Source: a virus. Taken from it: 64,000 nt of DNA. This document shows, piece by piece, positions 4,030-53,325 of this stretch. The stretch lies in the IMG/VR virus record IMGVR_UViG_3300045988_162176, positions 64,001-128,000 of that record, one strand, 5' to 3'. The position numbers and the translations under genes are program-made. The notes beneath the pieces are model-generated. The model worked only from the letters and a program-made list of their open reading frames with translations. It was not told the DNA's origin and searched no databases. Within the stretch, counting starts at the first letter, position 1, and each line of letters starts with the position of its first letter.

Positions 4030-5748
4030 TTAGGCAAAAGCCTTAGTCTCAACAGCGTCATAACGCTTAGTCAGAAGAACATCCATAAGTGCATCCCAAG
4101 GATTAGTCTTGCCCGAGAGAACCATTTTCAAAGTTTGGACACTAAACCCGCTGACCATGATACCATAGTCATTCTTAGTCATGGGAAGACCATTTCCGGT
4201 ATTACCCGCTCCTGCGACATTCCAGAAAATGATTTTGCTCATTTCATACCCAGCGTTCTTGTACTTCTGCTCAATAGACTTAAGGAAAGCAGGAGCTTCC
4301 TGAGCAGTAGCACGAGTGCTGTTATAACCCCAATAACCATAACCACTGCCAGTGCTAACATTACGGATATTTACCATAGAATCCCAACCACCATCACTGA
4401 TAATCAGAATATTCTTAGGCAAATCACTCTGAGGAGAATGATTCTTAATTGCAGTATCAAGAATCAGGTCAAATACTGCTTCAAGGTTGGTATTAGCAAC
4501 CTCACTATGACGAGCAGCTTCCCTAAGATTTGCACGCAAAGAGTCATGATTAACATTAACCATCTGAGGACGTGCAGAGAAAGTAATGTAACGACCCTTA
4601 TATGCACCCTTAGCACGCTCTGCAAAGTAAATTGCAAGGGAGTTAGCAACCTCAAGAGCAGTCATACGAGTACGACCCACAGTAGCACACATAGAACCAG
4701 AGCCATCGGCAACAACAATAGTGGAACTATCATCGGTTACAAGATTGGGAAGAGCCTTCCACATGCCTTCAAGGGCGGCATCATAAGAACGAGGAGAAGT
4801 ACCCCAATCATTCTCACAATACTTGTGAACAATGTCACAAGGATTAGAGACAGAAGAATTAATCTTCGCCTCACCCTTAGTAAGAGCGTTCAGATATGCA
4901 CGGCGGCGCTCTTCATCATTACGAAGGAAAGCCTTATTGTAATTAAGGTTTGCCTTAGAAGGAACAGTCTCGTAATCAATGCTCTGCCAGTTCTGAGAAG
5001 ACATCTTACGCTCAACAACGTCAAGATACTTACGGAGAGCAGACAGACCCTTACGATACTCACGCTCAGTCAGACCGAGCATATCCATAGTCTTAAGACC
5101 ACGCTTACGAGTATCATGGCTGTGAGAAGAAGCACTATCAAGCCACTTCGCCATAAGGCTAATGGACTTACCCTTCTTCATGTTAGCCATATCTTCCTTC
5201 CACTGCTTGCGAATCAGTTCACGAACAACAGGCTTAGTGGTAGGATTATCCATGACAGTATAGATATAATCCCAACGAGAATACTCAGGAATCATAGGAA
5301 TCAGGTTCGCCACAATCTGAGCACCACCATTGTTCATCATATCCTTAAGACAAATCTGGAAGAGACGGCGCTCACCCTGACCCTCACGGATATCGCCAGC
5401 ATAGAACAGCCAACGAATAGCGAGACGAGGATTCTCAGAATAAGCGGCACGGAACTTCTTCACAATATCGCCATCGGGAAGACTACGAAGAGCAGAGATG
5501 GAAGTGTTGATGTCAAGAAGAGCAGAACCAGAGGACTTATAGGCAATAGCACCATTAGAAGTGTACTGCTTATCAGCAGGAAGAGAAGGAACTGCAACCT
5601 TAGTGTAGTAGCCCTTGGCAGTATTCTCAACCTTGTCCATGAAAGAAGCCTTACGGCTAACTCGGTTGGACTTAGTAACAGGCTTTTCAGGCTTAGGAGC
5701 CCAAACCTTAGTGTTATTCTTCTTGTTAGGATTGTTGTAGTTATACAT
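4030..5748 (-). CDS. vWA-domain protein with large N-terminal DUF2828/TROVE-like region
   Basis: MIDAS motif VVADGSGSM and vWA-like C-terminal half. Start placed at ATG 5748 behind AAGGAGAA; the longer ORF-track N-terminus would overlap repeat E0. Confidence 0.7.
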   Translation of the reverse strand: MYNYNNPNKKNNTKVWAPKPEKPVTKSNRVSRKASFMDKVENTAKGYYTKVAVPSLPADKQYTSNGAIAYKSSGSALLDINTSISALRSLPDGDIVKKFRAAYSENPRLAIRWLFYAGDIREGQGERRLFQICLKDMMNNGGAQIVANLIPMIPEYSRWDYIYTVMDNPTTKPVVRELIRKQWKEDMANMKKGKSISLMAKWLDSASSHSHDTRKRGLKTMDMLGLTEREYRKGLSALRKYLDVVERKMSSQNWQSIDYETVPSKANLNYNKAFLRNDEERRRAYLNALTKGEAKINSSVSNPCDIVHKYCENDWGTSPRSYDAALEGMWKALPNLVTDDSSTIVVADGSGSMCATVGRTRMTALEVANSLAIYFAERAKGAYKGRYITFSARPQMVNVNHDSLRANLREAARHSEVANTNLEAVFDLILDTAIKNHSPQSDLPKNILIISDGGWDSMVNIRNVSTGSGYGYWGYNSTRATAQEAPAFLKSIEQKYKNAGYEMSKIIFWNVAGAGNTGNGLPMTKNDYGIMVSGFSVQTLKMVLSGKTNPWDALMDVLLTKRYDAVETKAFA

Positions 5749-5770
5749 AATTTTCTCCTTTTCTAAAGGA

Positions 5771-5836
5771 CTAGACTCTTTTTGTCCTTTTTTCAAAATA
5801 AAAGTTTTTTGTAGTTTGCTGTGAGAGTCTAACTAC
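5771..5836 (-). repeat. E-repeat copy E0 (in the 5' leader of the vWA gene)
   Basis: Arms ctagactct (5771-5779) / agagtctaa (5824-5832), the latter preceded by tttgctgtg. Confidence 0.7.
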
Positions 5837-16969: not shown

Positions 16970-16998
16970 ATATTACCATATATCTTTTTTCTTGTCAA
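16970..16998 (-). promoter_or_regulatory. Sigma70-type promoter
   Basis: TTGACA (16993-16998) - 17 nt - TAATAT (16970-16975). Confidence 0.6.
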
Positions 16999-17115
16999 GT
17001 ATTTATTAAAAGTTTCTCTCAAGAACGTGTAAAAAAAGGAAGAAGCCATTCGACCTCTTCCTCTTTTTTGGAGTGAATTTATAAAAATTTTAAACGGACT
17101 ACTTTTTATTTTTAA

Positions 17116-17571: not shown

Positions 17572-17679
17572 AATTTTTTGTCTCCTTTAATTTCTTTGTT
17601 TTACTTTAGTTATTATTTTAGTTTTTTGTTTCTTCTGCTTATATGTCAAAAGGAAAAATACTTTTCCTTAGATATTTCA

Positions 17680-17749
17680 GCGGCGACTTCGAATCGAACG
17701 AGCATTTCACGGGTTAGAGCCGTGCGCATTGACCATTATACTACGCCGC
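17680..17749 (-). tRNA. Suppressor tRNA, anticodon CUA (reads UAG)
   Basis: Acceptor GCGGCG/CGCCGC, D arm GTAT-AATGGTCA-ATGC, perfect anticodon stem CACGG/CCGTG, loop CTCTAAC. T loop is TTCGATT but the T stem is weak (3 bp). No encoded CCA. Confidence 0.65.
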
Positions 17750-17954: not shown

Positions 17955-18090
17955 TGGTGGGAATGGAGTGACTCGAACACTCAATTTCCCGATTTGGTGT
18001 TTTAGACAAGTCTTGCACTTGCATTTGAAGTTTTACTTTTAAACTACTAAAACATAAGTCGGGCCCTCTGACCAATTGAGATACATCCCC
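17955..18090 (-). tRNA. tRNA-Ile-like (anticodon TAT) interrupted by a 59-nt insert between positions 36 and 37
   Basis: Acceptor GGGGATG/CATTCCC+ACCA, D arm TCTC/GAGG, anticodon stem CCCGA/TCGGG, T arm GAGTG-TTCGAGT-CACTC. Loop CTTAT[59 nt]AA becomes CTTATAA after excision. Confidence 0.7.
17995..18053 (-). ncRNA. tRNA-like insert lacking an anticodon arm (intron candidate)
   Basis: GTTTTAG-TA-GTTT-AAAAGTA-AAAC-TTCAAAT-GCAAG-TGCAAGA-CTTGT-CTAAAAC-A-CCA: 7-bp acceptor, D-like arm, T arm, discriminator and CCA. Confidence 0.65.
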
Positions 18091-18565: not shown

Positions 18566-18646
18566 TGGCAGGGATGGAAGGATTCGAACCTTCGAAAAAA
18601 ACTCATAGAGTCAAAGTCTACTGCCTTACCGCTTGGCTACACCCCT
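18566..18646 (-). tRNA. tRNA-Gln (anticodon TTG), unusually long variable region
   Basis: D arm GCCAAGCGGTAAGGC as in bacterial tRNA-Gln, stem GTAGA/TCTAT, loop CTTTGAC, 11-nt variable GAGTTTTTTTC, CCA encoded. Confidence 0.7.
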
Positions 18647-18886: not shown

Positions 18887-18915
18887 AGTATAACATATAC
18901 TTTTCATCTTGTCAA
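18887..18915 (-). promoter_or_regulatory. Sigma70-type promoter
   Basis: TTGACA (18910-18915) - 17 nt - TATACT (18887-18892), upstream of the tRNA run. Confidence 0.55.
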
Positions 18916-19143
18916 GTACTTTTTAAAATTTCTTTTTGGAAGATTTTTTCGTTCAAATTAAGGAGGACAAAAACTTTTTGATACCAAAACAACTCAAGAC
19001 CAAGAAGTTCACAAAGAGCATCAACATCTTTCATTGTATACTTGTCTTTCTTTAAAGCTTTAATTTTTTCAACAATTTCCTCTTCTAAGAATAAAAATTC
19101 GTCCATAATAAAAATCCTCTTTTATTTGGGGAAAAATTCTAAA

Positions 19144-21087: not shown

Positions 21088-21210
21088 CTAGACACGTTTT
21101 TTTTGATATCGGTCATCCAGACATCCCCCGAAGGAGACGGAAGAATCGAACTTCCCCGTTTAATTTTCCATATTAAAGAATCAAGTAATTTTGCTGTGCG
21201 TGTCTACTTG
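21088..21210 (-). repeat. E-repeat copy E5 enclosing a permuted tRNA-like module
   Basis: Arms ctagacacg (21088-21096) / cgtgtctac (21199-21207). Interior runs hairpin TTAAT-ATGGAAA-ATTAA, T arm GGAAG-TTCGATT-CTTCC, GTCTCCT, TC, GGGGGAT (3' acceptor strand before 5'). Confidence 0.6.
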
Positions 21211-21260: not shown

Positions 21261-21394
21261 CTAGACTCATTTTACAAAATCTGTTGCTCTACCAGTTGAG
21301 CTAACTCCCGATGGTCGGGAGCAGAGGATTCGAACCTCCAACACACAGGCCCATAGCATTTGTGATTGTAAAGTTGCTGTTAGAGTCTACTTGA
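21261..21394 (-). repeat. E-repeat copy E6 enclosing a circularly permuted tRNA gene
   Basis: Arms ctagactc (21261-21268) / gagtctac (21383-21390) plus gttgctgtta. A second helix pairs TTTACAA with TTGTAAA. Confidence 0.75.
21275..21349 (-). tRNA. Circularly permuted tRNA (Gln-like, UUG): 3' half precedes 5' half
   Basis: Minus strand reads CCTGT-GTGTT-GGAGG-TTCGAAT-CCTCT-GCTCCCG-A-CCA-T-CGGGAGT-TA-GCTC-AACTGGTA-GAGC-A-ACAGA-TTTTG. The acceptor strands pair 7/7 only in this permuted order. Confidence 0.65.
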
Positions 21395-21466: not shown

Positions 21467-21495
21467 ACTATAACATAAAATTTTCATTTTGTCAA
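21467..21495 (-). promoter_or_regulatory. Sigma70-type promoter
   Basis: TTGACA (21490-21495) - 17 nt - TATAGT (21467-21472), ~85 nt upstream of E6. Confidence 0.65.
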
Positions 21496-21518
21496 GAATT
21501 TTAAAACAAAAATTTTAC

Positions 21519-21633: not shown

Positions 21634-21700
21634 CTAGACGCTTTTTGTGTATTCTTATTTAACAGATAAGTACATTTAAATTGCTGTAAGCGTCTACTAT
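21634..21700 (-). repeat. E-repeat copy E7
   Basis: Arms ctagacgc (21634-21641) / gcgtctac (21690-21697). Interior hairpin CTTAT-CTGTTAA-ATAAG has an Asn-type GUU loop. Confidence 0.75.
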
Positions 21701-21815: not shown

Positions 21816-21952
21816 CTAGAGACATTGTTGTTATGGACTCCTGCCTTAAACCACTTGGCTACATACTTCAACTGAAGACGTTCGGATTCGAACCGAAGAA
21901 TGGGAGTTTGGCTTCTAACATACTTTCAGAATTGCTGTTAGTCTCTACTTTA
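21816..21952 (-). repeat. E-repeat copy E8 enclosing tRNA-like parts (order and anticodon unresolved)
   Basis: Arms ctagagac (21816-21823) / gtctctac (21941-21948). The interior has T arm TTCGG-TTCGAAT-CCGAA, then a Gln-like D arm GCC-AAGTGGTTTAA-GGC, with split stem GGAGT/ACTCC. Confidence 0.55.
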
Positions 21953-22203: not shown

Positions 22204-22330
22204 CTAGACTCTTTTGCGTATTATTCACCACAGAGCGCCCTCTGACGAGAATCGAACTCGCTAATGATTGTTTTGCAGACAATTGTGTTAACCTTTTTAA
22301 GAATTTGCTGTAAGAGTCTACTTTATTATT
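22204..22330 (-). repeat. E-repeat copy E9 enclosing a permuted tRNA-Cys-like module
   Basis: Arms ctagactct (22204-22212) / agagtctac (22313-22321). Interior runs ATTGT-CTGCAAA-ACAAT (GCA), CATTA, GCGAG-TTCGATT-CTCGT, CAGAGGG, CGCTCTG. Confidence 0.6.
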
Positions 22331-22458
22331 CAGGAGGTTTTACCTATGCACTTATTATAACATATCATCTTTAAGATGTCAACCACTTATTAAAATTTTC
22401 TTTTTGCTTTTTATCTTTTTGAGAAGTTTTTATTTTGCTCTTTTCTTAAGATGTATTT

Positions 22459-24609: not shown

Positions 24610-24740
24610 CTTGACACTTTTTTCTAGCCAACCACGGTTAACCATTCCTTGCTCAAGGGATACGTTAATAAGGAGTCGAACCTTACACGACGTTATTCCA
24701 AAAACATAAAATAAATTTGCTGTGAGTGTCAACTTTTGTT
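24610..24740 (-). repeat. E-repeat copy E10 (variant arms) enclosing tRNA-like parts
   Basis: Arms cttgacac (24610-24617) / gtgtcaac (24726-24733) plus tttgctgtga. Interior T arm TAAGG-TTCGACT-CCTTA then TTAACGT. The fold is not resolved. Confidence 0.55.
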
Positions 24741-25497: not shown

Positions 25498-25631
25498 TGG
25501 AGCAAGATACGAGATTCGAACTCGCCCTTACGGTTTTGGTCCTTTAAGTAAGACTTGAACTTACATCAATGGTTTTTCATTAAACTATTAAAGGGGAAGA
25601 CCGTCGTGCTAACCACTAACACTAATCCTGC
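25498..25631 (-). tRNA. tRNA-Gly-like (anticodon TCC) interrupted by a 58-nt insert between positions 36 and 37
   Basis: Acceptor GCAGGAT/ATCTTGC+T+CCA, D arm GTGT/GCAC, perfect stem ACGGT/ACCGT, T arm GCGAG-TTCGAAT-CTCGT. Loop CTTCC[58 nt]AA becomes CTTCCAA after excision. Confidence 0.7.
25537..25594 (-). ncRNA. tRNA-like insert lacking an anticodon arm (homolog of 17995-18053)
   Basis: CCTTTAA-TA-GTTT-AATGAA-AAAC-CATTGAT-GTAAG-TTCAAGT-CTTAC-TTAAAGG-A-CCA. Confidence 0.65.
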
Positions 25632-26254: not shown

Positions 26255-26728
26255 TTACTTTTTCACCGAAGTCACGCCATTAAAATCATACAAACGTACA
26301 ATATGGCTTAGTCCTAAAGTGTCAGAAATATCAGCACTAATGATAGACCAATCTCCACCAGCAAGACCACACCCAATCATATAAGGCATAGCAATCTCTT
26401 CTCCAATAGGAATCATTTCACGAATCTTAAGAAGACATTCATGAAAATATTCATAGTTGGTGTTTACATTTGGTCCACCAATGCCAATCTGAGAAAACAT
26501 ATTAAGAAAAACTTTATCTTTGTTTTCCTCAATTCGAAGAACTTTACCATAAAGCTCTTCAGGAGTATGATAACTACAAAACTTATTATACTCCAAATAA
26601 ACATGAGGATAATTCTTCTTAATTTGAAGAGCAACACCAGCGCCCATTACACCAAAGGTATTAGCCTGATGACAAATATACTTTGCCGAAGTCTTAAGGA
26701 CATCGCCTTGAATAATAGACACTGACAT
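26255..26728 (-). CDS. Macro-domain protein (ADP-ribose binding/hydrolase)
   Basis: IIQGDVL...ICHQANTFGVMGAGVALQI...GCGLAGG, the typical macro-domain pattern. Confidence 0.75.
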   Translation of the reverse strand: MSVSIIQGDVLKTSAKYICHQANTFGVMGAGVALQIKKNYPHVYLEYNKFCSYHTPEELYGKVLRIEENKDKVFLNMFSQIGIGGPNVNTNYEYFHECLLKIREMIPIGEEIAMPYMIGCGLAGGDWSIISADISDTLGLSHIVRLYDFNGVTSVKK

Positions 26729-26739
26729 AACCTTCTCCT

Positions 26740-27060
26740 TTATTCTTTATCTGTTTCTTGCAAATTTTCTTGCAACTTCTTATAATACATATGATAAGAA
26801 TCAAAGTATTTAAGAAGAAATTCTTTATAAACTTTAGCGACATAATTAGCAGAACCCACAGGAAAATCAAGACCCAAATCTTCTGCAATAATATCTACAG
26901 CTTTTCTCAAAGGCTCAGGAGGGATATTATTCAGTTTAAACTTTTTAGTTTCTGAATCATTATCACACCAAGCTTTGCCATTTACAACCGTTAAAAACCT
27001 AATTGAAGGATTCTTAGAGAGTTCCAACTTGTGTTCCTCACTTCTCTTATAGGGTAACAC
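26740..27060 (-). CDS. Hypothetical protein
   Basis: ORF track (non-ATG start). Confidence 0.45.
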   Translation of the reverse strand: MLPYKRSEEHKLELSKNPSIRFLTVVNGKAWCDNDSETKKFKLNNIPPEPLRKAVDIIAEDLGLDFPVGSANYVAKVYKEFLLKYFDSYHMYYKKLQENLQETDKE

Positions 27061-27109
27061 AGATGTTTAAATCTGTCAAGTATTTAATAAAAGAAATTTT
27101 TTATTTCTC

Positions 27110-29716: not shown

Positions 29717-29745
29717 ATCATAACATACAATCATCAAATTGTCAA
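29717..29745 (-). promoter_or_regulatory. Sigma70-type promoter
   Basis: TTGACA (29740-29745) - 17 nt - TATGAT (29717-29722), ~30 nt upstream of tRNA-Leu. Confidence 0.65.
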
Positions 29746-29965
29746 GGCTTTAATAAAACTTTCTTTTTATTTTCTTTAGAGTGTTTATCTTAGATGTGTA
29801 CCCAAAACCGTTAAAATGGTACACTCGCTACCTTTTAATTTTATAGTTGGGAAGGTGTCTTTTGGCAACATATTACGCACCCTGAGTAAGCAAGGCCGTT
29901 GAACCACATTTCTCTATGAGTTATCTTACTTTTCTCACAGCTACCGATTAACCAACTGTATATTT

Positions 29966-30004: not shown

Positions 30005-30304
30005 CTAAAATTCTGACTTTTTCAATGTAGGAGTAATATCTAAATTAGAATTTGCACTTGTACGAGTATAAGTAGAACCAGCCCAATCTGACCCCCAGAT
30101 GTCAGCCTTGGTAGTAACATACTTCTTATATTTGCAAGAAAGTTTTACAGAAAGACACTCAGGATAATCTTTAATACTTTTTTTGAGCTCATTAAAAGAT
30201 TCTTCTGCTTTGACCACATCCTCTGTGTATTTACAAATTGCTTCGTTTTCACATCCTGAACAAACACTTGGAATATATTCTCGACCTGTATTAAGTACCA
30301 TCAT
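30005..30304 (-). CDS. Hypothetical Cys-rich protein
   Basis: ORF track. Ends at a TAG; read-through adds 2 codons. Confidence 0.55.
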   Translation of the reverse strand: MMVLNTGREYIPSVCSGCENEAICKYTEDVVKAEESFNELKKSIKDYPECLSVKLSCKYKKYVTTKADIWGSDWAGSTYTRTSANSNLDITPTLKKSEF

Positions 30305-30818
30305 TGTTTTCTTCTCCTTCCTTATAATATTCTTGTAAAATCAAATTATAACATAGCGTATTAGGATGATAATATGGATTATCATAAATCTGACTATCAT
30401 CCCCAGTAAAACATTTCATAATACCAGCACAAACACCAGAAGAACGACTAATGCCAGCATTACAATGAACAATAATTACATCAACCTTATCCCACCACTT
30501 ATTGACAAAATCAATAACTTTTTTAGCATCTTCTTTTGTCATCAGTTGATAAATACGAGACTCATAAACAAAACCATCTGAATTAGTATAGTTTTCTACA
30601 ATTAGACCTTCATCCTTCTTCCAGTACTGCATACCCTTATAGGGCTGAATATCATCAAAGAAAAGAGATAATTGAGCCTTAATATTATTAAATTTATTAG
30701 GAAGTTGACGCACGCCAATCTCGATAGAATCATTAATGCTAATTACAACAGAATTCTCTTCATGAGAACCATAGCTATATTTAACACAATCTCTACGACT
30801 CATAACCTTAAACTGCAT
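30291..30818 (-). CDS. Cys-based (dual-specificity/tyrosine) phosphatase
   Basis: Active-site signature VHCNAGISRSSG (HCx5R[S/T]). Confidence 0.75.
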   Translation of the reverse strand: MQFKVMSRRDCVKYSYGSHEENSVVISINDSIEIGVRQLPNKFNNIKAQLSLFFDDIQPYKGMQYWKKDEGLIVENYTNSDGFVYESRIYQLMTKEDAKKVIDFVNKWWDKVDVIIVHCNAGISRSSGVCAGIMKCFTGDDSQIYDNPYYHPNTLCYNLILQEYYKEGEENNDGT

Positions 30819-30848: not shown

Positions 30849-31289
30849 TTAATCTAAACTTATTTTACGTCTATATCTACATTCTCTGACAAACCAATCT
30901 TGCAATTCTTTTACAGTCATTGGTTTTGGGGGTGGTTCTAATTTATATTCTCCATTTTCATCCAAAGGTTGACCAGTATAACAATAAGCTCTAACATAAC
31001 ATTCTGCCGCAGGAACCATATCTTCTGGATTTTTTACATAATGGTCAGCTATAAATCCAACCGCAAATTTTCCAGCAGTAGTATAAGTTTTTACGTGCCT
31101 TGACAGGCAAAGATATTGTCCTCTATCAACTGGCTTATTATTATATTTGTATTCTCCTAAAGCACAACCAACATCCCACAGTTCCATATAATAATCTGTA
31201 TCTGTAGGATAAATCTTTGTGCCTTTTACATTTAGATTGCTAAAATCAATTAACTACTTTGCTCTTGCAATATTTTTAAACAGACTCAT
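30849..31289 (-). CDS. Hypothetical protein (TAG at 31254-31256)
   Basis: The ORF-track 30849-31187 ORF extends through TAG to ATG 31289, which overlaps the end of the Thg1-like gene. Confidence 0.5.
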
Positions 31290-32100
31290 TGGTAAATACC
31301 TTCTGACTAATAAAGTCTTTACCTTCTTCACTTGTTAAAATTGGCATTTCATAATCAAGAATCCACTTATAACGAATAGCCTCCTGACCATCTTTGCCAA
31401 TAACAGTAGTAGGAACACGATATGCACAAGTACCACGTTTCTCTACTGTTGTATAATCGTTCCAGTTTACACCCTTTTCAGTAAACATCTTATCCTGTAA
31501 TTTGGTAGTATTAATACCATGAAGTTCTTTTTGAGAATACAAAGATTGAGCAACTGCCTGAATAGAATTTCGAGTACAATCCTGCTGTCTCCAAACAAAA
31601 TAATTATGCACTTCAAAGGCAGGGACAACAAATACTCTACTATCAAAGGTGGGCATTTCTTTTCCCTTACGAACCATTTTCCAATCGTAAGAATCTTGAT
31701 TCATATTAAAGATATCTAAGGTTGTATCAATAATAGTATTCTCGGCAAAATAATTATTAAACCAAAGAGTACAAAGAGCCGCAGATGTACTAACAATTTT
31801 TTGAATATTATTGTCAAACCATGGCTGAGAATTTCTTTCGCTCTGAATCATGACAAGAGAAATTTCATCTGACTCAACATAACCAAACTTAACATTTGGA
31901 ATAATTTCACAGAGCTTAAGCATAGTCTGTTGCATGGTTTTAACAAAAATAGGGTCAAAAGGTTTCTTCATACCACGGCAGAATGAATGAAAATGAGCTC
32001 CATCCAAACGGATAATTACAGGAAAATTCTCAGGAAGATAATTACGATATCTATTCTCGTAAGCACCCTTCATTCTATCGCTTAAAGTTTTATACTCCAT
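31276..32100 (-). CDS. Thg1-like protein (tRNA-His guanylyltransferase / 3'-5' polymerase family)
   Basis: RLDGAHFHSF, YVESDEISLV, FDSRVFVVP, YFVWRQQDCTRN match the Thg1 family signatures. Confidence 0.8.
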   Translation of the reverse strand: MEYKTLSDRMKGAYENRYRNYLPENFPVIIRLDGAHFHSFCRGMKKPFDPIFVKTMQQTMLKLCEIIPNVKFGYVESDEISLVMIQSERNSQPWFDNNIQKIVSTSAALCTLWFNNYFAENTIIDTTLDIFNMNQDSYDWKMVRKGKEMPTFDSRVFVVPAFEVHNYFVWRQQDCTRNSIQAVAQSLYSQKELHGINTTKLQDKMFTEKGVNWNDYTTVEKRGTCAYRVPTTVIGKDGQEAIRYKWILDYEMPILTSEEGKDFISQKVFTNESV

Positions 32101-33336: not shown

Positions 33337-34584
33337 TCATCTAATCTCCACTAAATATCGAATAGTTACTTGGTCAGGACGATAGAAAATAATTTCTGGA
33401 TTGCGAAGCATTCCCTTTTCAGGAGAAGCGTAAACACAATGGCAAGGAGGATTCTTTTTCTGAAGCACATCAAAATTAAAATGATAACACTCGGAAGTAT
33501 GTTCATAAACAGTATAAGGATTTCCATAAGCCACTTCAAAAATAGCCATGAATCCAGTATTATTACTTCCTCTTGCCCAGTAAGAACCACTTACACTTGT
33601 ATAACCAATACTCTTTCGAGCTAAAGTGCTAAAATACAATCCATCGCTAAACATCGAACCTGTATAGATAGCATTTGCGGGACGAATCTTCAAACCCATT
33701 TTAAGGATATTAAAGAAATTTTGAGACCTGCTACCATGCCACATAAGTTTAGTGTTTGTAATATTATAATCTTTAATAAAAGAATTAAATGCTTTATTAG
33801 TCTCTAAATTATTAACACTCCATGCTTTTACGAATCTATCAGAATCTCGCCCAAGCATATTTTTAATTCTGGCAACTTCATCCTGAGTGACATCTTCCAT
33901 GGTAATACCCATCTTCTGCAAAATGCTTTCAGAAGCTTTAATTTCAGAATCGGTGTCGGCAATTTTTACCTTGGGCTTATAAACTTGACCAGCCATAGTA
34001 TCAAGCAAGCTTTGTTCCTCAGAAAGCTTTTTGTCGTATTCGGAAGAATCAGAAACAAGACAGTCAGAAACGCGCTTCATCTTACGAGGAACAATAATAA
34101 ACAATTCATTCAAATTCTTGTTAAATTCCTCAACAGACCAGTTTTTGTAGTTCGCTGCAATATAGTCAATCTTTTCCTGAGCAGCATCAATCATAGCCTG
34201 AGTAACAGCTTCAGCACGAACTGAATAAGCAGATTGAATAGTCTTATTAGCATAATCCCAAAGACGTTTAACAATCTCTCTAACAGATAAATTTTGAACC
34301 AAACCAAATTCATCTACCCCGTTAGACTTGTCTTCAACTTTAGAATCAGCAATAACTTCCTGCATCAAATCAGAACGGTCAACATACCCCTTCTTCAATT
34401 TAGAAGAAAGAGTAGAATTCCATTTGGACATAGGATAAGTTTTAGTCTGAGGAGCAGCACCAACACGACCATATTCAGCCGTAAAAGTATCATCTCCATT
34501 TGGACTAATTTTGTAATATTTATTATGTCCAAGGTCTCCAAAATTAGGGTCTACAAAGATTAAATATTTGGGAGTATAATCCAT
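33337..34584 (-). CDS. WGR-domain poly(ADP-ribose) polymerase-like ADP-ribosyltransferase
   Basis: N-terminal WGR-like NKYYKI...AEYGRVGA. C-terminal H-Y-E pattern LMWHGSR ... GLYFS ... NPEIIFY. Confidence 0.75.
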   Translation of the reverse strand: MDYTPKYLIFVDPNFGDLGHNKYYKISPNGDDTFTAEYGRVGAAPQTKTYPMSKWNSTLSSKLKKGYVDRSDLMQEVIADSKVEDKSNGVDEFGLVQNLSVREIVKRLWDYANKTIQSAYSVRAEAVTQAMIDAAQEKIDYIAANYKNWSVEEFNKNLNELFIIVPRKMKRVSDCLVSDSSEYDKKLSEEQSLLDTMAGQVYKPKVKIADTDSEIKASESILQKMGITMEDVTQDEVARIKNMLGRDSDRFVKAWSVNNLETNKAFNSFIKDYNITNTKLMWHGSRSQNFFNILKMGLKIRPANAIYTGSMFSDGLYFSTLARKSIGYTSVSGSYWARGSNNTGFMAIFEVAYGNPYTVYEHTSECYHFNFDVLQKKNPPCHCVYASPEKGMLRNPEIIFYRPDQVTIRYLVEIR

Positions 34585-45307: not shown

Positions 45308-46126
45308 TCATAATTTAGTCTCACTTTCTAAAAGTTCTTTCTTTAAAGAATGTGCAATCATTGTTCTTTGTACGTTTCTTAAAACTTCTGCAACAGTTTC
45401 ATCTGTTTCAAAGTGCTTATCCATTACATATTCATCTACCAAAACTTCTGCTTCTGTAATTAAAGATTCAGCCACCCTTTTAGCATCTTCAATAGGAAGT
45501 GGAGTAGTTTTGTAGCTAATTAACAACTCAGGGTCTTTAGGAATTAAAATCTTTTCATAAGGTTCGTCTTCTGCTACATATCTTTTGATAAAATCTGATA
45601 GCCTTGCAATATGATGGAAATCTTTCAATCCATATCCATAATTGTCAATGTCAAACTCATTATGAGGGGCTCTATGAAACATCTGTTTATACTTAGTCTT
45701 CATATTACCATACATTGTCAGCACAGCTTTGTGAGGACAATAATGGGCAATAGCCTCTCTGTTTTTAATAATAGCTCCAAGCCACATGCCAGCGTATTCT
45801 GGATTTAGCTCAAAATATTTAGTAAACAATGTTTCTGTGAAATTAATATTTTGTTTTAAATAACTGTTGAACATTAAACGAATATCTTTGACTTCAAGCT
45901 TTCCTCCATCTTCATCTCGATGATATTCTTTACTAACCCAATCTTTAGAATCAACGATGTCATCAAAATGAGGAAGTACAATTGCTTTTGTATCAACGTC
46001 AGAATGTTCGGTAGCCATACCATAATTATTACTACCGTAAACAAACACTCCAACAATATTATATCCAAGTTCTTTCAAAAATTCATAATCAGAATGAACT
46101 CTATTATTAACCTTTTCCAAATTCAT
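45308..46126 (-). CDS. Pol-beta superfamily nucleotidyltransferase (possibly RlaP-like)
   Basis: VFVYGSNNYGMATEHSDVDTKAIV (GS...D.D pattern). Confidence 0.5.
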   Translation of the reverse strand: MNLEKVNNRVHSDYEFLKELGYNIVGVFVYGSNNYGMATEHSDVDTKAIVLPHFDDIVDSKDWVSKEYHRDEDGGKLEVKDIRLMFNSYLKQNINFTETLFTKYFELNPEYAGMWLGAIIKNREAIAHYCPHKAVLTMYGNMKTKYKQMFHRAPHNEFDIDNYGYGLKDFHHIARLSDFIKRYVAEDEPYEKILIPKDPELLISYKTTPLPIEDAKRVAESLITEAEVLVDEYVMDKHFETDETVAEVLRNVQRTMIAHSLKKELLESETKL

Positions 46127-50949: not shown

Positions 50950-52308
50950 TTACCCTTCCACCATAGAGTTTTTAAAACGCTTTAAATTGTGTAGGGCTTT
51001 TGTAATTTCAGAATATTTGTAGCAAAACTGTTTCTTCAGCAAGAAATCGTTTTCTTGCCCAAGATATTTGGTCTTTGTTCTGCCCTTTAATACTTTAGGA
51101 AGTTTATCCATCCAAAGCATTGCTTCTTTTTTATCATTCCAAAAGTCTACACATTCCGCATTTCCTTTAACTAAAATTTTATCAATAAGCTCTTTATAGA
51201 GATTAAGATATTCATGAACAGTATTATAATATTCCATAATTAAATCTCTATATGCTTCAGGACATTTTGCCAAAAAGTCATCAAATCTATCTTCGTGAAT
51301 AGCATTAATAACAGCGTTAGGAGAAATATTTTTAGATAATGCTTTATGCATTAAAACATAATCCGATGTTTTGACTTTGCATCTAAAATGATTTTTATGT
51401 CTATCAACCATATCAACTACCCAACCTTCTTTTTCAGAAGAAAGATAATTATCAGTATCAGCTAAAATGCTAAATAAAGTAGCATTATAATACCATTGAG
51501 TCATTTTAGAATCATATTCCTCAGCCATATCACTAAGGATATCAAAAGAAACTTCCTTACCATCCTTAACATCTCTTGCCGCAAGTAAATATAATCCTTC
51601 TTGAGATTCATTATATTTAACAACAATAGGATTTTTTGGAGAAATATATTCAAAAATAAAAGTATAATCAGGATAATCCTTAATTAATTCTTTCTGCCCA
51701 TCAGATAAGAGCTTATAACCCTCAGCAAGTCTCCAAGATTCAACAGGGTCTAATGCCTGAGAACCAGAACCTAAAATTCTGTCTTCCTCTGCAATATATC
51801 TGTATTGCTGATAAGAACCATCAAGCTTATTAGTAATAAAAACTGAATGAGCAAAATTATATTTAGACCTAATATTTTTAGGAGACCAATCACCATCATC
51901 CTCACCATAGTTCTTAAACTTTGCCAAAGATGCAAGAGCAATTTCATCGTTCTTTAAATCAAAGACACAAGAACGACATTCTCTATAAAGACCATCATAT
52001 AATTCAAAGAAAGAGCCTAAATCATAATCATCAGATAATTCAATAAAACCCTTGTACTTAAAAAGCACATAATGGTCATAACAAGTAATCTGAAGAGGGT
52101 CAAAAATCTTATTTAACTTTTCATTAAGTTTAGGAGTAATATTCCCCCATACTTCAAGAACTCTGTCAAGCCAATCATTAAAATTATAATTCTCAGGACA
52201 AGGTTCATTGTTAAGGAGAGTATAAGACTGGATATACTTTCTTTTAACAGTCATAACATATTCATAAAGAGGATGCCAAAGAAACTCTTTTTGAAAACGA
52301 AAATTCAT
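50950..52308 (-). CDS. RNA ligase (T4 Rnl1-like)
   Basis: Nucleotidyltransferase motif I TNKLDGS; length and adjacency to a polynucleotide-kinase-like gene. Confidence 0.6.
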   Translation of the reverse strand: MNFRFQKEFLWHPLYEYVMTVKRKYIQSYTLLNNEPCPENYNFNDWLDRVLEVWGNITPKLNEKLNKIFDPLQITCYDHYVLFKYKGFIELSDDYDLGSFFELYDGLYRECRSCVFDLKNDEIALASLAKFKNYGEDDGDWSPKNIRSKYNFAHSVFITNKLDGSYQQYRYIAEEDRILGSGSQALDPVESWRLAEGYKLLSDGQKELIKDYPDYTFIFEYISPKNPIVVKYNESQEGLYLLAARDVKDGKEVSFDILSDMAEEYDSKMTQWYYNATLFSILADTDNYLSSEKEGWVVDMVDRHKNHFRCKVKTSDYVLMHKALSKNISPNAVINAIHEDRFDDFLAKCPEAYRDLIMEYYNTVHEYLNLYKELIDKILVKGNAECVDFWNDKKEAMLWMDKLPKVLKGRTKTKYLGQENDFLLKKQFCYKYSEITKALHNLKRFKNSMVEG

Positions 52309-52344: not shown

Positions 52345-53325
52345 TTATTCTTCAGAAATTCCACTTGCAATTTTATCACATTCATTAAACAAGAAAAGCT
52401 TATCAAGATTTTCTTTTCCCATAACCTTTTCCCATTTAGCTTTAGACTTTTCAGTTTCAAGAAAGAATGGGAGCATATGGAAATTAACATAAAACAGACA
52501 TTTTAAAATATCATTCATATTAGTAAATCCAATGCAATCCAGATTCGCTAAGAGGTCATATGTCCCTACATTATGATGACTATAATATCTATAATCACCA
52601 GAACCATCTTCTTTGGGCTGTCCAGTAGTTAACTTGCCTAAATCATGAATCTGTGCGGCTCTATAAAGAACCTTATCGTCAGTTCTCTTAGCAACTTCCT
52701 CAGCACAAATCCTGCAATGCTCATCTAAAGTATACTTATGATGATGAGTCTTTTGGTCAAAACCTTTCATCAAGCTCATAATATAGTCATCATCAGTAGT
52801 CCAATTAGACTGAGGCACAATTACTTCAAACTGATTAAAATTCCAACCAATTAAATTAATTGTATCAAAACCTTCCTCATAAAAAGGAATTTCAAACTTA
52901 CCAATCTGTCTATCAATAACTTCTTCGGGAACTGTACGAGCCCTTGCTCTATTCTGTCTTTTGCAAACAGCAATAGGAGTAGTCATAACATAAGCAACTT
53001 TAGTGACATTTTCCTTATTGCGAACAATATCCAACAAGCTCTTACGAGATTTAACATTAATATTAGTTGCATCGACAATGATATTCATTTTATCAACGCA
53101 ATTATTAATACGGCGACGAACTTCTTTAAAGACCTCATCATTATGAGTTTGGTCATTTACATCTCCAAAAACAGTTTCACGAATTTCATCCGACGAAACA
53201 ATCATTGTGGGCTGACCCATTTTAGTCAACATATCTTTAAGATTCTGAGCAAGAGTAGATTTGCCACTTGCAACAACTCCAATCATCATCATAAAATTCG
53301 TATGTTCCATTTTTGTTCTCCTCAC
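52345..53325 (-). CDS. P-loop polynucleotide kinase-like domain fused to an HD phosphohydrolase domain
   Basis: Walker A GVVASGKST in the N-terminal half and HD signature AAQIHDLGK in the C-terminal half. Confidence 0.6.
   Translation of the reverse strand: MRRTKMEHTNFMMMIGVVASGKSTLAQNLKDMLTKMGQPTMIVSSDEIRETVFGDVNDQTHNDEVFKEVRRRINNCVDKMNIIVDATNINVKSRKSLLDIVRNKENVTKVAYVMTTPIAVCKRQNRARARTVPEEVIDRQIGKFEIPFYEEGFDTINLIGWNFNQFEVIVPQSNWTTDDDYIMSLMKGFDQKTHHHKYTLDEHCRICAEEVAKRTDDKVLYRAAQIHDLGKLTTGQPKEDGSGDYRYYSHHNVGTYDLLANLDCIGFTNMNDILKCLFYVNFHMLPFFLETEKSKAKWEKVMGKENLDKLFLFNECDKIASGISEE

What the first reader, a model, noticed from the sequence alone, without database searches (positions are those of the whole stretch)
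21261..21394. Circularly permuted tRNA gene inside repeat E6
Reading the minus strand, the order is: E6 5' arm, anticodon-stem 3' strand CCTGT, variable loop, T arm GGAGG-TTCGAAT-CCTCT, acceptor 3' strand GCTCCCG, A-CCA, one T, acceptor 5' strand CGGGAGT, D arm GCTC-AACTGGTA-GAGC, anticodon-stem 5' strand ACAGA, TTTTG, E6 3' arm.

The two acceptor strands pair 7/7 only in this 3'-half-before-5'-half order. TTTTG matches positions 32-36 of bacterial tRNA-Gln.

The layout resembles the permuted tRNA genes known from the red alga Cyanidioschyzon merolae, where leader and trailer pair and the RNA matures via a circular intermediate. That has not, to my knowledge, been described in a phage.
Basis: partly seen in the sequence, partly recalled or inferred. 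Interest (0 to 1): 0.88.

Follow-up and report, generated by a model that had tools for sequence, protein, structure and literature searches.

The report
Permuted tRNA-like phage Y RNA
The sequence is a real tRNA look-alike written in "3' half before 5' half" order, but it is most likely a non-coding RNA resembling bacterial Y RNAs, one of a widespread and apparently undescribed phage RNA family encoded beside a Ro60-like protein gene, and not a tRNA gene that matures through an RNA circle.

Summary
Observation confirmed.

Interpretation only partly supported.
- The element matches Rfam YrlA (Y RNA-like) below that family's threshold.
- It is one of 11 'E' scaffolds in the window: a 7-bp closing stem, then NN-ACAGCAA, a variable payload and an A-rich joiner.
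- Stem-closed ACAGCAA modules cluster on the gene strand next to a DUF2828-vWA 'Ro-like' gene. This holds in 65 divergent viral loci and in 9 of 10 cultured phage genera sampled.
- Other phages encode the same RNA in normal tRNA order, with the E hairpin replacing the anticodon loop. E6 rearranged into that order aligns with them end to end.
- The supposed UUUUG anticodon is two linker bases plus three bases of a co-varying helix, and homologs lack it.
- The closing loop N-CCA-N(1-5) recurs in another lineage with different acceptor sequences. This suggests RNase P cleavage giving a two-piece RNA with a CCA end, as shown for M. smegmatis YrlA.

No evidence supports a mature tRNA-Gln or a circular intermediate.

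Verdict: a new variant of a known kind (a tRNA-mimicking Y RNA), sitting in a broader RNA/protein association that deserves experiments.

The parts
21261..21390 (-). E6: the complete element, an E scaffold enclosing a permuted tRNA-like module (YrlA topology)
   Evidence: R1 model 92.7 bits
21383..21390 (-). E closing stem P1, 5' arm GUAGACUC; pairs with 21261-21268
   Evidence: the N/N' position co-varies among 11 window copies; stem present in the MFE fold
21374..21380 (-). conserved single-stranded core ACAGCAA, preceded by a 2-nt spacer
   Evidence: invariant across phage families
21366..21373 (-). helix P2, 5' strand CUUUACAA; pairs with 21270-21277
   Evidence: co-varies with L066 UUUUCAA/UUGAAAA
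21280..21349 (-). tRNA-like core: AC-stem 3' strand, V loop, T arm, acceptor 3' strand, ACCA-U loop, acceptor 5' strand, D arm, AC-stem 5' strand
   Evidence: Rfam YrlA 39.8 bits; covariation; ARAGORN calls the rearranged halves a tRNA
21311..21315 (-). acceptor closing loop A-CCA-U; predicted RNase P cut between U21311 and C21310
   Evidence: N-CCA-N(1-5) recurs in L066 with different acceptor sequences; M. smegmatis YrlA precedent; the cleavage itself is inferred
21261..21279 (-).
21467..21495 (-). sigma-70-type promoter TTGACA-17-TG-TATAGT, about 70 nt upstream of E6
   Evidence: 11 of 12 matches; belongs to repeat family D2
21088..21207 (-). next E element, with a T arm plus a UUCG-closed acceptor-like hairpin; lies 13 nt upstream of tRNA-Leu
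21816..21948 (-). E element with a full permuted tRNA-like module (AC stem ACUCC/GGAGU, T arm, tetraloop-closed acceptor, D arm; no CCA)
22204..22321 (-). E element with a T arm plus a closed hairpin
24610..24733 (-). E element with a T arm (variant arms GUUGACAC/GUGUCAAG)
21634..21697 (-). minimal E element (64 nt); inner hairpin loop CUGUUAA
17865..18540 (-). four further E elements without T arms: 18540-18400, 18270-18205, 18188-18101, 17934-17865
5771..5832 (-). E element in the 5' leader of the Ro-like gene; its 3' arm ends 22 nt before the ATG
4030..5796 (-). DUF2828 + DUF7788/vWA protein, the Ro60-like candidate partner
   Evidence: Pfam; Foldseek top hit is human Ro60; homologs annotated 'Ro-like RNA binding protein'

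Best explanation
E6 is a gene for a tRNA-mimicking non-coding RNA with the topology of bacterial YrlA Y RNAs.

Structure: the RNA's 5' and 3' ends pair in a conserved scaffold, the 'E module'. This is a 7-bp stem flanked by the single strands NN-ACAGCAA and an A-rich joiner. The body folds into a T arm, a 7-bp acceptor stem closed by the loop A-CCA-U, a D arm and a short anticodon-like stem.

Origin: it is the circular permutation of tRNA-like RNAs that other phages encode in normal order, with the E hairpin in place of the anticodon loop. It most simply arose from a tandem pair of such units.

Inferred steps:
- It is transcribed from its own promoter together with the next E element and tRNA-Leu.
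- The E module is the binding site of the phage's Ro60-like DUF2828-vWA protein.
- Host RNase P cuts between U and C+1 in the closing loop. One-nucleotide trimming then leaves a two-piece, base-paired tRNA-like RNA with a CCA 3' end.
- The resulting ribonucleoprotein uses the tRNA-like handle to engage tRNA-recognising or RNA-repair/decay enzymes during infection.

It does not decode.
For: Shown:
- Rfam YrlA match over the full model at 21268-21366(-), 39.8 bits, E = 6e-6.
- The fold has the closing stem and three tRNA-like arms.
- There are 11 E copies in the window with a co-varying stem. Several carry partial tRNA-like modules that cannot be tRNAs.
- An E copy abuts the Ro-like gene.
- In 65 divergent loci, ACAGCAA occurs 349 times on the gene strand and 34 times opposite. 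Stem-closed copies number 144 versus 5. Of the 144, 80 lie within 700 nt upstream, with 44 distinct stem sequences.
- 9 of 10 cultured phage genera have 2-6 such modules beside the gene.
- Density is 173-383 per Mb, against 25 per Mb in unrelated viral DNA and 5.5 per Mb on the opposite strand.
- The protein model's only significant fold match is Ro60. 8 of 23 homologs hit Pfam vWA_Ro60. Homologs are annotated 'Ro-like RNA binding protein'.
- Normal-order units pair 7/7 across a 61-80-nt gap that holds the E hairpin.
- Rearranged E6 aligns colinearly with those units, 59-67% identity over about 119 columns.
- 10 of 21 core pairs are compensatory, including 5 of 7 in the acceptor.
- The N-CCA loop recurs in L066 with different stems.
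- EFDG1 has equivalent permuted modules next to its Ro-like gene.

Precedent: M. smegmatis YrlA has a 7-bp acceptor, is cut by RNase P and carries CCA (PMC4201824).
Against: - The YrlA score is below Rfam's gathering threshold (39.8 versus 69).
- The canonical Ro-binding motif GNCGAAN0-1G is absent.
- In this window the Ro-like gene lies 15.5 kb from E6.
- Sequence-level homology of DUF2828 to Ro60 is limited to the vWA start (hhalign E = 0.002, probability 13%). There were no PDB sequence hits, and the fold match has a low TM-score of 0.34-0.37 on a model with pLDDT 66.
- No binding, expression or cleavage data exist.
- Some normal-order relatives retain a full anticodon hairpin, and removing their E insert would give a perfect tRNA. 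An intron-like role for the E module is therefore not excluded.
- The EFDG1 permuted modules lack CCA, so the CCA in E6 could be a relic.
Confidence: 0.7

Rival explanations
1. True permuted tRNA gene. Leader and trailer pair, an endonuclease cuts both, a ligase circularises the RNA, and RNase P plus 3' trimming open it at the acceptor to give a decoding tRNA-Gln(UUG).
For: - The halves are in permuted order with 7/7 acceptor pairing and an encoded ACCA.
- ARAGORN calls the joined halves tRNA-Gln(ttg).
- The phage encodes an Rnl1-type RNA ligase and a kinase.
Against: - There is no bulge-helix-bulge. Both large loops are on the 5' strand.
- UUUUG is absent from homologs and is half inside co-varying helix P2.
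- Pair 31-39 is mismatched in 6 of 8 sequences, and positions 37-38 would be GG.
- No splicing endonuclease was found among the 30 ORFs scanned.
- Sibling elements cannot be tRNAs.
- A normal tRNA-Gln(UUG) is present.
- E6's body is no closer to that tRNA than to other tRNAs.
Confidence: 0.04
2. The E module is a protein-dependent intron or processing cassette. In normal-order relatives it is excised from the anticodon stem or loop and the exons are religated, perhaps by phage Rnl1/PNK with the Ro-like protein as a platform. E6 would then be a natural permuted intron-exon arrangement yielding a circular or rejoined tRNA-like RNA.
For: - In several normal-order units, removing the roughly 43-nt E insert at position 28/29 leaves a perfect 5-bp anticodon stem with a CUGUUAA-type loop.
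- A ligase, a kinase and a Thg1-like enzyme are encoded.
- Many E elements lie immediately 5' of tRNAs.
Against: - Most E elements are free-standing 50-75-nt hairpin cassettes with no exons. One lies in an mRNA leader.
- Orthologous units with the same acceptor have drifting anticodons and an 8-nt loop.
- Many units, including E6 and the closest normal-order units in the alignment (L088_5409, L085_5380), have no anticodon hairpin at all.
- No endonuclease was identified.
- No ribozyme family matched.
Confidence: 0.12
3. Non-functional relic: the middle of a tandem duplication of tRNA-like genes, transcribed or not, with no role of its own.
For: Tandem arrays with 3-13-nt spacers after NCCA exist in relatives. 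Such arrays would generate exactly this arrangement.
Against: - The element is nearly invariant across at least 15 contigs whose flanks vary.
- Compensatory changes maintain all four helices in a lineage whose protein is 48% identical.
- It has its own near-consensus promoter.
- The same topology is kept in EFDG1.
Confidence: 0.05
4. Artefact: the junction of two adjacent tRNA genes (T arm of one, D arm of the next). This is the known false-positive class for YrlA models.
For: Many hits of my own model R1 were such junctions. Chen et al. warn of this.
Against: - The two acceptor strands pair with each other 7/7.
- There is no 5' half upstream, only a promoter and an AT-rich leader.
- The next downstream acceptor 3' strand pairs only 5/7.
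Confidence: 0.01

Closest known systems
YrlA, bacterial and mycobacteriophage Y RNA-like tRNA mimics (Rfam RF02553; Chen et al. 2014, PMC4201824)
   Same: - Same order: end-pairing stem, anticodon-like stem, V loop, T arm, hairpin-closed acceptor, D arm.
- The tRNA tertiary nucleotides are kept.
- A 7-bp acceptor, as in M. smegmatis YrlA, which RNase P cleaves and which carries CCA.
- Multiple paralogous RNAs per locus, some with only a T arm (like YrlB).
- Encoded on the same strand as a Ro-type gene.
   Different: - Below the Rfam threshold.
- No GNCGAAN0-1G/CGAA motif; instead a 7-bp stem plus NN-ACAGCAA plus an A-rich joiner.
- The partner gene is DUF2828-vWA, not a TROVE-domain Ro60.
- CCA is genomically encoded in the closing loop.
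- The family also exists in normal tRNA order.
- Copies are interspersed in a tRNA array.
Permuted tRNA genes of Cyanidioschyzon merolae, prasinophytes and Thermofilum (own knowledge)
   Same: The 3' half precedes the 5' half; the acceptor strands are joined by a short linker after CCA; leader and trailer pair.
   Different: - No BHB motif and no splicing endonuclease.
- No reconstitutable conserved anticodon loop.
- Homologs show the 'leader/trailer' is a conserved functional module, not a discarded one.
Two-piece tmRNA from circularly permuted ssrA genes (alpha-proteobacteria, cyanobacteria; own knowledge)
   Same: A tRNA-like RNA family found in both standard and permuted gene order. The permuted form is expected to function as two base-paired pieces with a CCA end exposed by processing.
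   Different: No mRNA-like tag reading frame and no pseudoknots. ARAGORN finds no tmRNA. A D arm is present.
Thermus phage phiLo Ro60 with Yrl1/Yrl2 (PMC12135203)
   Same: A phage-encoded Ro-type protein with tandem small RNAs encoded just upstream. It forms complexes with host PNPase, which offers a model for function.
   Different: That protein is a canonical Ro60 and its RNAs carry the CGAA motif. No tRNA-like module is reported in the passages read.

Membership tests
Permuted tRNA gene (C. merolae type) | 3' half upstream of 5' half, with the two acceptor strands complementary | tested here: met
   GCTCCCG/CGGGAGT pair 7/7, separated by ACCA-T
Permuted tRNA gene (C. merolae type) | Leader and trailer form a bulge-helix-bulge at the anticodon-loop junction | tested here: not met
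   The junction is AC stem, then 16-nt/2-nt loop, then 8-bp P2, then 9-nt/1-nt loop, then P1. Both large loops are on the same strand.
Permuted tRNA gene (C. merolae type) | Joining restores a canonical 7-nt anticodon loop that is conserved in homologs | tested here: not met
   UUUUG is absent in L066 and in the normal-order units. Pair 31-39 is unpaired in 6 of 8. Positions 37-38 would be GG.
Permuted tRNA gene (C. merolae type) | Splicing endonuclease available | tested here: inconclusive
   None among the 30 ORFs scanned with Pfam. Not all ORFs, nor the host, were examined.
Permuted tRNA gene (C. merolae type) | Circular RNA intermediate and a mature joined tRNA | not testable with these tools
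   Needs RNA data.
YrlA / bacterial Y RNA (RF02553) | Score at or above the Rfam gathering threshold | tested here: not met
   39.8 bits versus 69, although E = 6e-6 and the full model length is matched
YrlA / bacterial Y RNA (RF02553) | tRNA-like domain in the order T arm, closed acceptor, D arm, with the RNA ends in a terminal stem | tested here: met
YrlA / bacterial Y RNA (RF02553) | GNCGAAN0-1G Ro60-binding motif near the 5' end | tested here: not met
   The aligned segment is UCACAAAUG. The conserved motif here is ACAGCAA.
YrlA / bacterial Y RNA (RF02553) | Encoded within about 4 kb of a Ro60 (TROVE) ortholog, on the same strand | tested here: inconclusive
   - Same strand, but 15.5 kb from the gene in this window.
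- The gene is DUF2828-vWA, not TROVE.
- Another E copy abuts the gene.
- In relatives the modules lie within 700 nt of it.
YrlA / bacterial Y RNA (RF02553) | Bound by the Ro-type protein | not testable with these tools
   Needs immunoprecipitation or EMSA.
E-module RNAs (defined here) | 7-bp closing (or hairpin) stem, 2-nt spacer, ACAGCAA, payload, A-rich joiner | tested here: met
Two-piece (permuted) tmRNA | Tag-peptide reading frame and tmRNA pseudoknots; detected by ARAGORN or Rfam | tested here: not met
   ARAGORN reports no tmRNA. Rfam tmRNA gives only 11-17-nt T-loop matches at E > 2.
Ro60 / TROVE proteins (for ORF 4030-5796) | Helical-repeat ring plus a C-terminal vWA/MIDAS domain, and a match to the TROVE family | tested here: inconclusive
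   - No TROVE Pfam hit.
- DUF2828 + DUF7788/vWA.
- vWA_Ro60 hit in 8 of 23 homologs.
- Foldseek top and only significant hit is Ro60: E = 8e-5, TM 0.34-0.37.
- hhalign matches only the vWA start, E = 0.002.

The most novel reading that the evidence does not exclude
E6 may be the permuted member of an undescribed, pan-phage ribonucleoprotein system. Its parts would be DUF2828-vWA 'Ro-like' proteins, present in 695 of 50,697 GenBank phage records (among them FelixO1-like, P100-like, Campylobacter, Vibrio, Mycobacterium and Bacillus phages), and a dedicated RNA module (stem + ACAGCAA).

This module is grafted onto tRNA bodies in either gene order. After RNase P cleavage E6 would be a two-piece tRNA-like RNA with a genuine CCA end. 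That RNA could be aminoacylated, or could act as a handle or decoy for tRNA-directed host defences or for the phage's own tRNA-repair enzymes.
Probability: 0.4. Interest if true: 0.8.

Novelty: new variant of a known kind. Interest (0 to 1): 0.62.

Why it matters
- If the E module is the ligand of the DUF2828-vWA protein, a large uncharacterised phage protein family gains a testable RNA partner. The family has 695 of 50,697 GenBank phage records and more than 4,800 metagenomic homologs.
- Y-RNA biology would then extend well beyond canonical Ro60, into genetically tractable phages.
- The family is also a natural example of one structured RNA encoded in two circularly permuted gene orders. This makes a clean system for asking how RNase P, CCA ends and tRNA mimicry serve a phage ribonucleoprotein.
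- For annotation, it explains 'orphan' T arms and gaps in phage tRNA arrays. It also warns that permuted tRNA-shaped sequences in phages need not be tRNA genes.

Tried and rejected
- Megablast of 17-25 kb against GenBank phages found no match.
- The pattern ACAGCAANNTTACAAT scanned in viral contigs gave 120+ hits, essentially all chance. Only 1 of 117 had a closing stem plus a T loop.
- phmmer and hmmsearch of the DUF2828 protein or its profile against PDB found no Ro60 hit.
- hhalign against verified human Ro60 was weak and covered only the vWA domain.
- Self-cleaving ribozyme families (hammerhead, twister, pistol, hatchet, HDV-like): no Rfam match at E <= 5-10 anywhere in 16-31 kb.
- tmRNA: not found.
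- tRNA-dimer junction: rejected for E6, but it explains many R1 hits.
- The idea that the E6 body derives from the window's tRNA-Gln: no special similarity, 52/69, like other tRNAs.
- The idea that E payloads generally mimic the tRNA-Asn anticodon loop CUGUUAA: true of only 11 of 229 elements.
- Literature searches for DUF2828, Ro-like phage ncRNA and permuted tRNA in phage found no description of this RNA.

Full report
**1. The observation**

The window carries a phage-type tRNA array on the minus strand, with 17 ARAGORN tRNAs between 17.6 and 29.7 kb. These are the E 5' arm, CCTGT, GTGTT, GGAGG-TTCGAAT-CCTCT, GCTCCCG, ACCA, T, CGGGAGT, TA, GCTC-AACTGGTA-GAGC, A, ACAGA, TTTTG... and the E 3' arm.

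The acceptor strands pair 7/7. The nucleotides that make the tRNA L-shape are all present: U8, A14, G18G19, A15:U48, G53:C61 and the T-loop UUCGAAU. When the halves are joined in tRNA order, ARAGORN calls a tRNA.

It is not a junction of two tRNA genes. Upstream lies only a near-consensus promoter (TTGACA-17-TG-TATAGT, 21495-21467) and an AT-rich leader. The next downstream acceptor 3' strand pairs only 5/7 with the E6 5' strand.

Two details need correcting:
- The 31-39 pair is an A.C mismatch.
- The last three bases of 'TTTTG' pair with CTTTACAA.

**2. What the sequence matches**

A permissive Rfam scan gives a single non-tRNA hit in 15 kb. It is YrlA (Y RNA-like, RF02553) at 21268-21366(-), covering the full model, at 39.8 bits and E = 6e-6, below the gathering score of 69.

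According to Chen et al. 2014 (PMC4201824), YrlA RNAs are bacterial and mycobacteriophage partners of Ro60. Their ends pair in a stem, and their body mimics a tRNA in the order T arm, hairpin-closed acceptor, D arm. That is the 'permuted' order seen here.

The same paper shows that M. smegmatis YrlA has a 7-bp acceptor. It is cut by RNase P in vivo and in vitro and then carries CCA.

**3. The 'E repeat'**

The window has 11 copies of one architecture: GUAGAC-N-C, a 2-nt spacer, ACAGCAA, a variable payload of 40-120 nt, an A-rich joiner, then G-N'-GUCUAG.
- N and N' co-vary (U/A, A/U, G/C, C/G), and whole-arm variants also pair (GUAAACCC/GGGUUUAG, GUUGACAC/GUGUCAAG).
- All seven copies folded show this closing stem in the minimum-energy structure.
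- Five payloads contain T arms.
- The element at 21948-21816 has a full permuted module whose acceptor is closed by a tetraloop without CCA.
- The elements at 22321 and 21207 have only a T arm plus a closed hairpin.

These siblings cannot be tRNAs. E6 is the most tRNA-like of a series.

**4. The protein partner**

One E copy (5832-5771) lies in the leader of ORF 4030-5796(-). That ORF encodes a 588-aa protein with DUF2828 + DUF7788 and a weak vWA hit.

Evidence that the protein is Ro60-like:
- An AlphaFold model (pLDDT 66) has exactly one significant PDB fold match. It is human Ro60 over the full length, with E = 8e-5 but TM only 0.34-0.37.
- 8 of 23 homologs hit Pfam 'vWA_Ro60'.
- Homologs occur in 695 GenBank phage records and are annotated 'Ro-like RNA binding protein' in mycobacteriophages.

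Sequence-level support is thin. There are no PDB sequence hits. hhalign against a verified human Ro60 sequence aligns only the start of the vWA domain (E = 0.002).

I therefore call the protein Ro60-like, not a Ro60 ortholog.

The window also encodes an Rnl1-type RNA ligase, a kinase, a Thg1-like enzyme, a PARP and a nucleotidyltransferase. This is the kind of RNA-repair gene set in which Ro/TROVE proteins and tRNA-like partners have been noted in jumbo phages (PMC7824862).

**5. RNA-gene linkage across phages**

I examined 65 viral loci whose protein is only 44-56% identical to the query.
- ACAGCAA occurs 349 times on the gene strand and 34 times on the other strand.
- Copies with a perfect 7-bp closing stem number 144 versus 5.
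- 80 of the 144 lie within 700 nt upstream of the gene.
- 44 different stem sequences are used.
- Chance closure is about 11% (shifted-arm control and unrelated viral loci). Observed closure is 41%, and 82% in the ten cultured-phage loci sampled.

Ten cultured genera were sampled. Nine have 2-6 tandem modules on the gene strand beside the gene, each with its own stem:
- Felixounavirus
- mycobacteriophage Gardann
- Enterococcus EFDG1
- Bacillus PK-3
- Listeria P100
- Staphylococcus S-CoN_Ph5
- Campylobacter F372
- Aeromonas LAh_6
- Vibrio BUCT194

Serratia BF has none within 3 kb.

This is the genomic logic of rsr/Y RNA loci. The conserved RNA motif, however, differs from the GNCGAAN0-1G/CGAA motif of canonical Y RNAs. 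Nothing in Rfam 15 matches it, and I found no paper describing it.

**6. E6 is one of two gene orders of the same RNA**

A covariance model of the permuted core found further permuted modules:
- Two in L066 (48% protein identity; there the gene sits inside the tRNA array).
- Two in EFDG1, immediately upstream of its Ro-like gene.

Most other strong hits turned out to be junctions inside tandem arrays of normal-order units. In these, an acceptor 5' strand and D arm are followed by an A-rich joiner and a hairpin-closed E stem. Then come NN-ACAGCAA and 13-24 nt that often end in GGG(A). The anticodon-stem 3' strand, V loop, T arm and acceptor 3' strand follow.
- The acceptor 3' strand pairs 7/7 with the upstream 5' strand.
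- The D-arm-to-T-arm distance is 61-80 nt, against 22-25 nt in ordinary tRNAs.

E6 rearranged into tRNA order aligns colinearly with such units, at 59-67% identity over about 119 columns. In its native order only 78 columns align.

Cutting the middle out of two tandem normal-order units yields exactly E6: E 5' arm ... 3' half-NCCA-short spacer-5' half ... E 3' arm. This explains the encoded ACCA-U.

**7. Against a decoding tRNA-Gln**

- Against L066, 10 of 21 core pairs show compensatory changes, including 5 of 7 in the acceptor. Overall 95.8% of cells are paired, and 0 of 500 shuffles reach these values. The tRNA-like fold is therefore under selection.
- The '31-39' pair is unpaired in 6 of 8 sequences.
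L066 has ACGG-UAAAAAUUGAAAAU and ACG-UAAAAAU, and the normal-order units have A-rich joiners of 3-10 nt.
- In E6, UUG of UUUUG pairs in helix P2 (UUUACAA/UUGUAAA). That helix co-varies with UUUUCAA/UUGAAAA in L066.
- Leader and trailer do not make a bulge-helix-bulge.
- A canonical tRNA-Gln(UUG) exists at 18566-18646. The E6 body is no more similar to it than to other tRNAs.

**8. The CCA loop**

Three permuted modules have 7-bp acceptors of unrelated sequence closed by N-CCA-N(1-5):
- E6: A-CCA-U
- L066: C-CCA-UAAUG
- L066: G-CCA-UUGU

The determinants for bacterial RNase P are present: the stacked acceptor and T helices, NCCA, and U at -1 in two of the three. M. smegmatis YrlA gives the precedent.

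I therefore infer cleavage 5' of C21310 and trimming to CCA. This would give a two-piece RNA equivalent to the normal-order relatives with the E hairpin opened.

This step is inference. EFDG1's permuted modules lack CCA, so the CCA might be a recent relic.

**9. Residual alternative**

In some normal-order units the E insert sits at position 28/29, and its removal would leave a perfect anticodon arm with loop CUGUUAA. An intron-like reading is therefore not excluded.

Several points argue for a module and not an intron:
- Orthologous units with the same acceptor (GCCAGGG) have drifting anticodons and even an 8-nt loop.
- Many units lack any anticodon hairpin.
- Most E elements are free-standing.

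**10. Verdict**

The C. merolae-type interpretation is not supported.

The best reading is a YrlA-topology tRNA-mimic RNA built on a newly recognised phage RNA module that is genomically coupled to a Ro60-like protein. That makes it a new variant of a known kind.

The wider RNA/protein association and the natural pair of permuted gene orders are what give it interest.

Noticed in passing
window 17679-17749 (-): A tRNA with anticodon CTA, which ARAGORN labels 'Pyl' (Rfam tRNA 36.8 bits). It is an amber-suppressor type, hinting that the phage may reassign TAG in some genes.
   Followed up: no
window 17958-18090 (-); L068 8160, L069 8773, L079 104 and others: A 133-nt Rfam tRNA hit that ARAGORN does not call, apparently a tRNA with an insert of about 60 nt in the anticodon loop. 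Related phages have tRNAs with 96-100-nt D-to-T gaps that lack ACAGCAA and whose inserts contain T-arm-like hairpins. This is a second, different insert class.
   Followed up: partly
window 25540-25594 (-): A Rfam tRNA hit of only 55 nt (41.6 bits) that ARAGORN does not call. It may be a truncated or armless tRNA-like element.
   Followed up: no
window 26255-53325 (-): A dense set of RNA-repair and ADP-ribose genes:
- Rnl1-type RNA ligase (50950-52308)
- AAA_33 kinase (52345-53325)
- Thg1-like 3'-5' polymerase (31276-32100)
- WGR-PARP (33337-34584)
- weak Macro domain (26255-26728)
- DSP-type phosphatase (30291-30818)
- NTP_transf_2 (45308-46126)
   Followed up: partly
window 16972-17020, 18889-18937, 21469-21517, 22356-22404, 27053-27101, 29719-29767: A repeat family that, read on the minus strand, consists of near-consensus sigma-70 promoters (TTGACA-17-TATAAT-like). 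They divide the tRNA/E array into short transcription units.
   Followed up: partly
window 21634-21697 (-); several normal-order units (e.g. L096 4837, L076 5599): The inner hairpin of the minimal E element has the loop CUGUUAA, identical to a tRNA-Asn(GUU) anticodon loop. The same loop recurs in normal-order units, but in only 11 of 229 E elements overall.
   Followed up: yes
L242 (Mycobacterium phage Gardann) 3933-4180: The single annotated 'tRNA-Asn' just downstream of the Ro-like gene is flanked by two E modules. It may belong to this RNA system and not be a decoding tRNA.
   Followed up: no
L248 (Serratia phage BF) 1271-4479: Here the Ro-like gene lies next to an RNA ligase gene, but no stem-closed ACAGCAA module occurs within 3 kb. 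It is the one exception among the ten genera sampled.
   Followed up: partly
window 18566-18646 (-): The canonical tRNA-Gln(UUG) is 81 nt long, with an unusually long, U-rich variable region (GAGUUUUUUUCGA).
   Followed up: no
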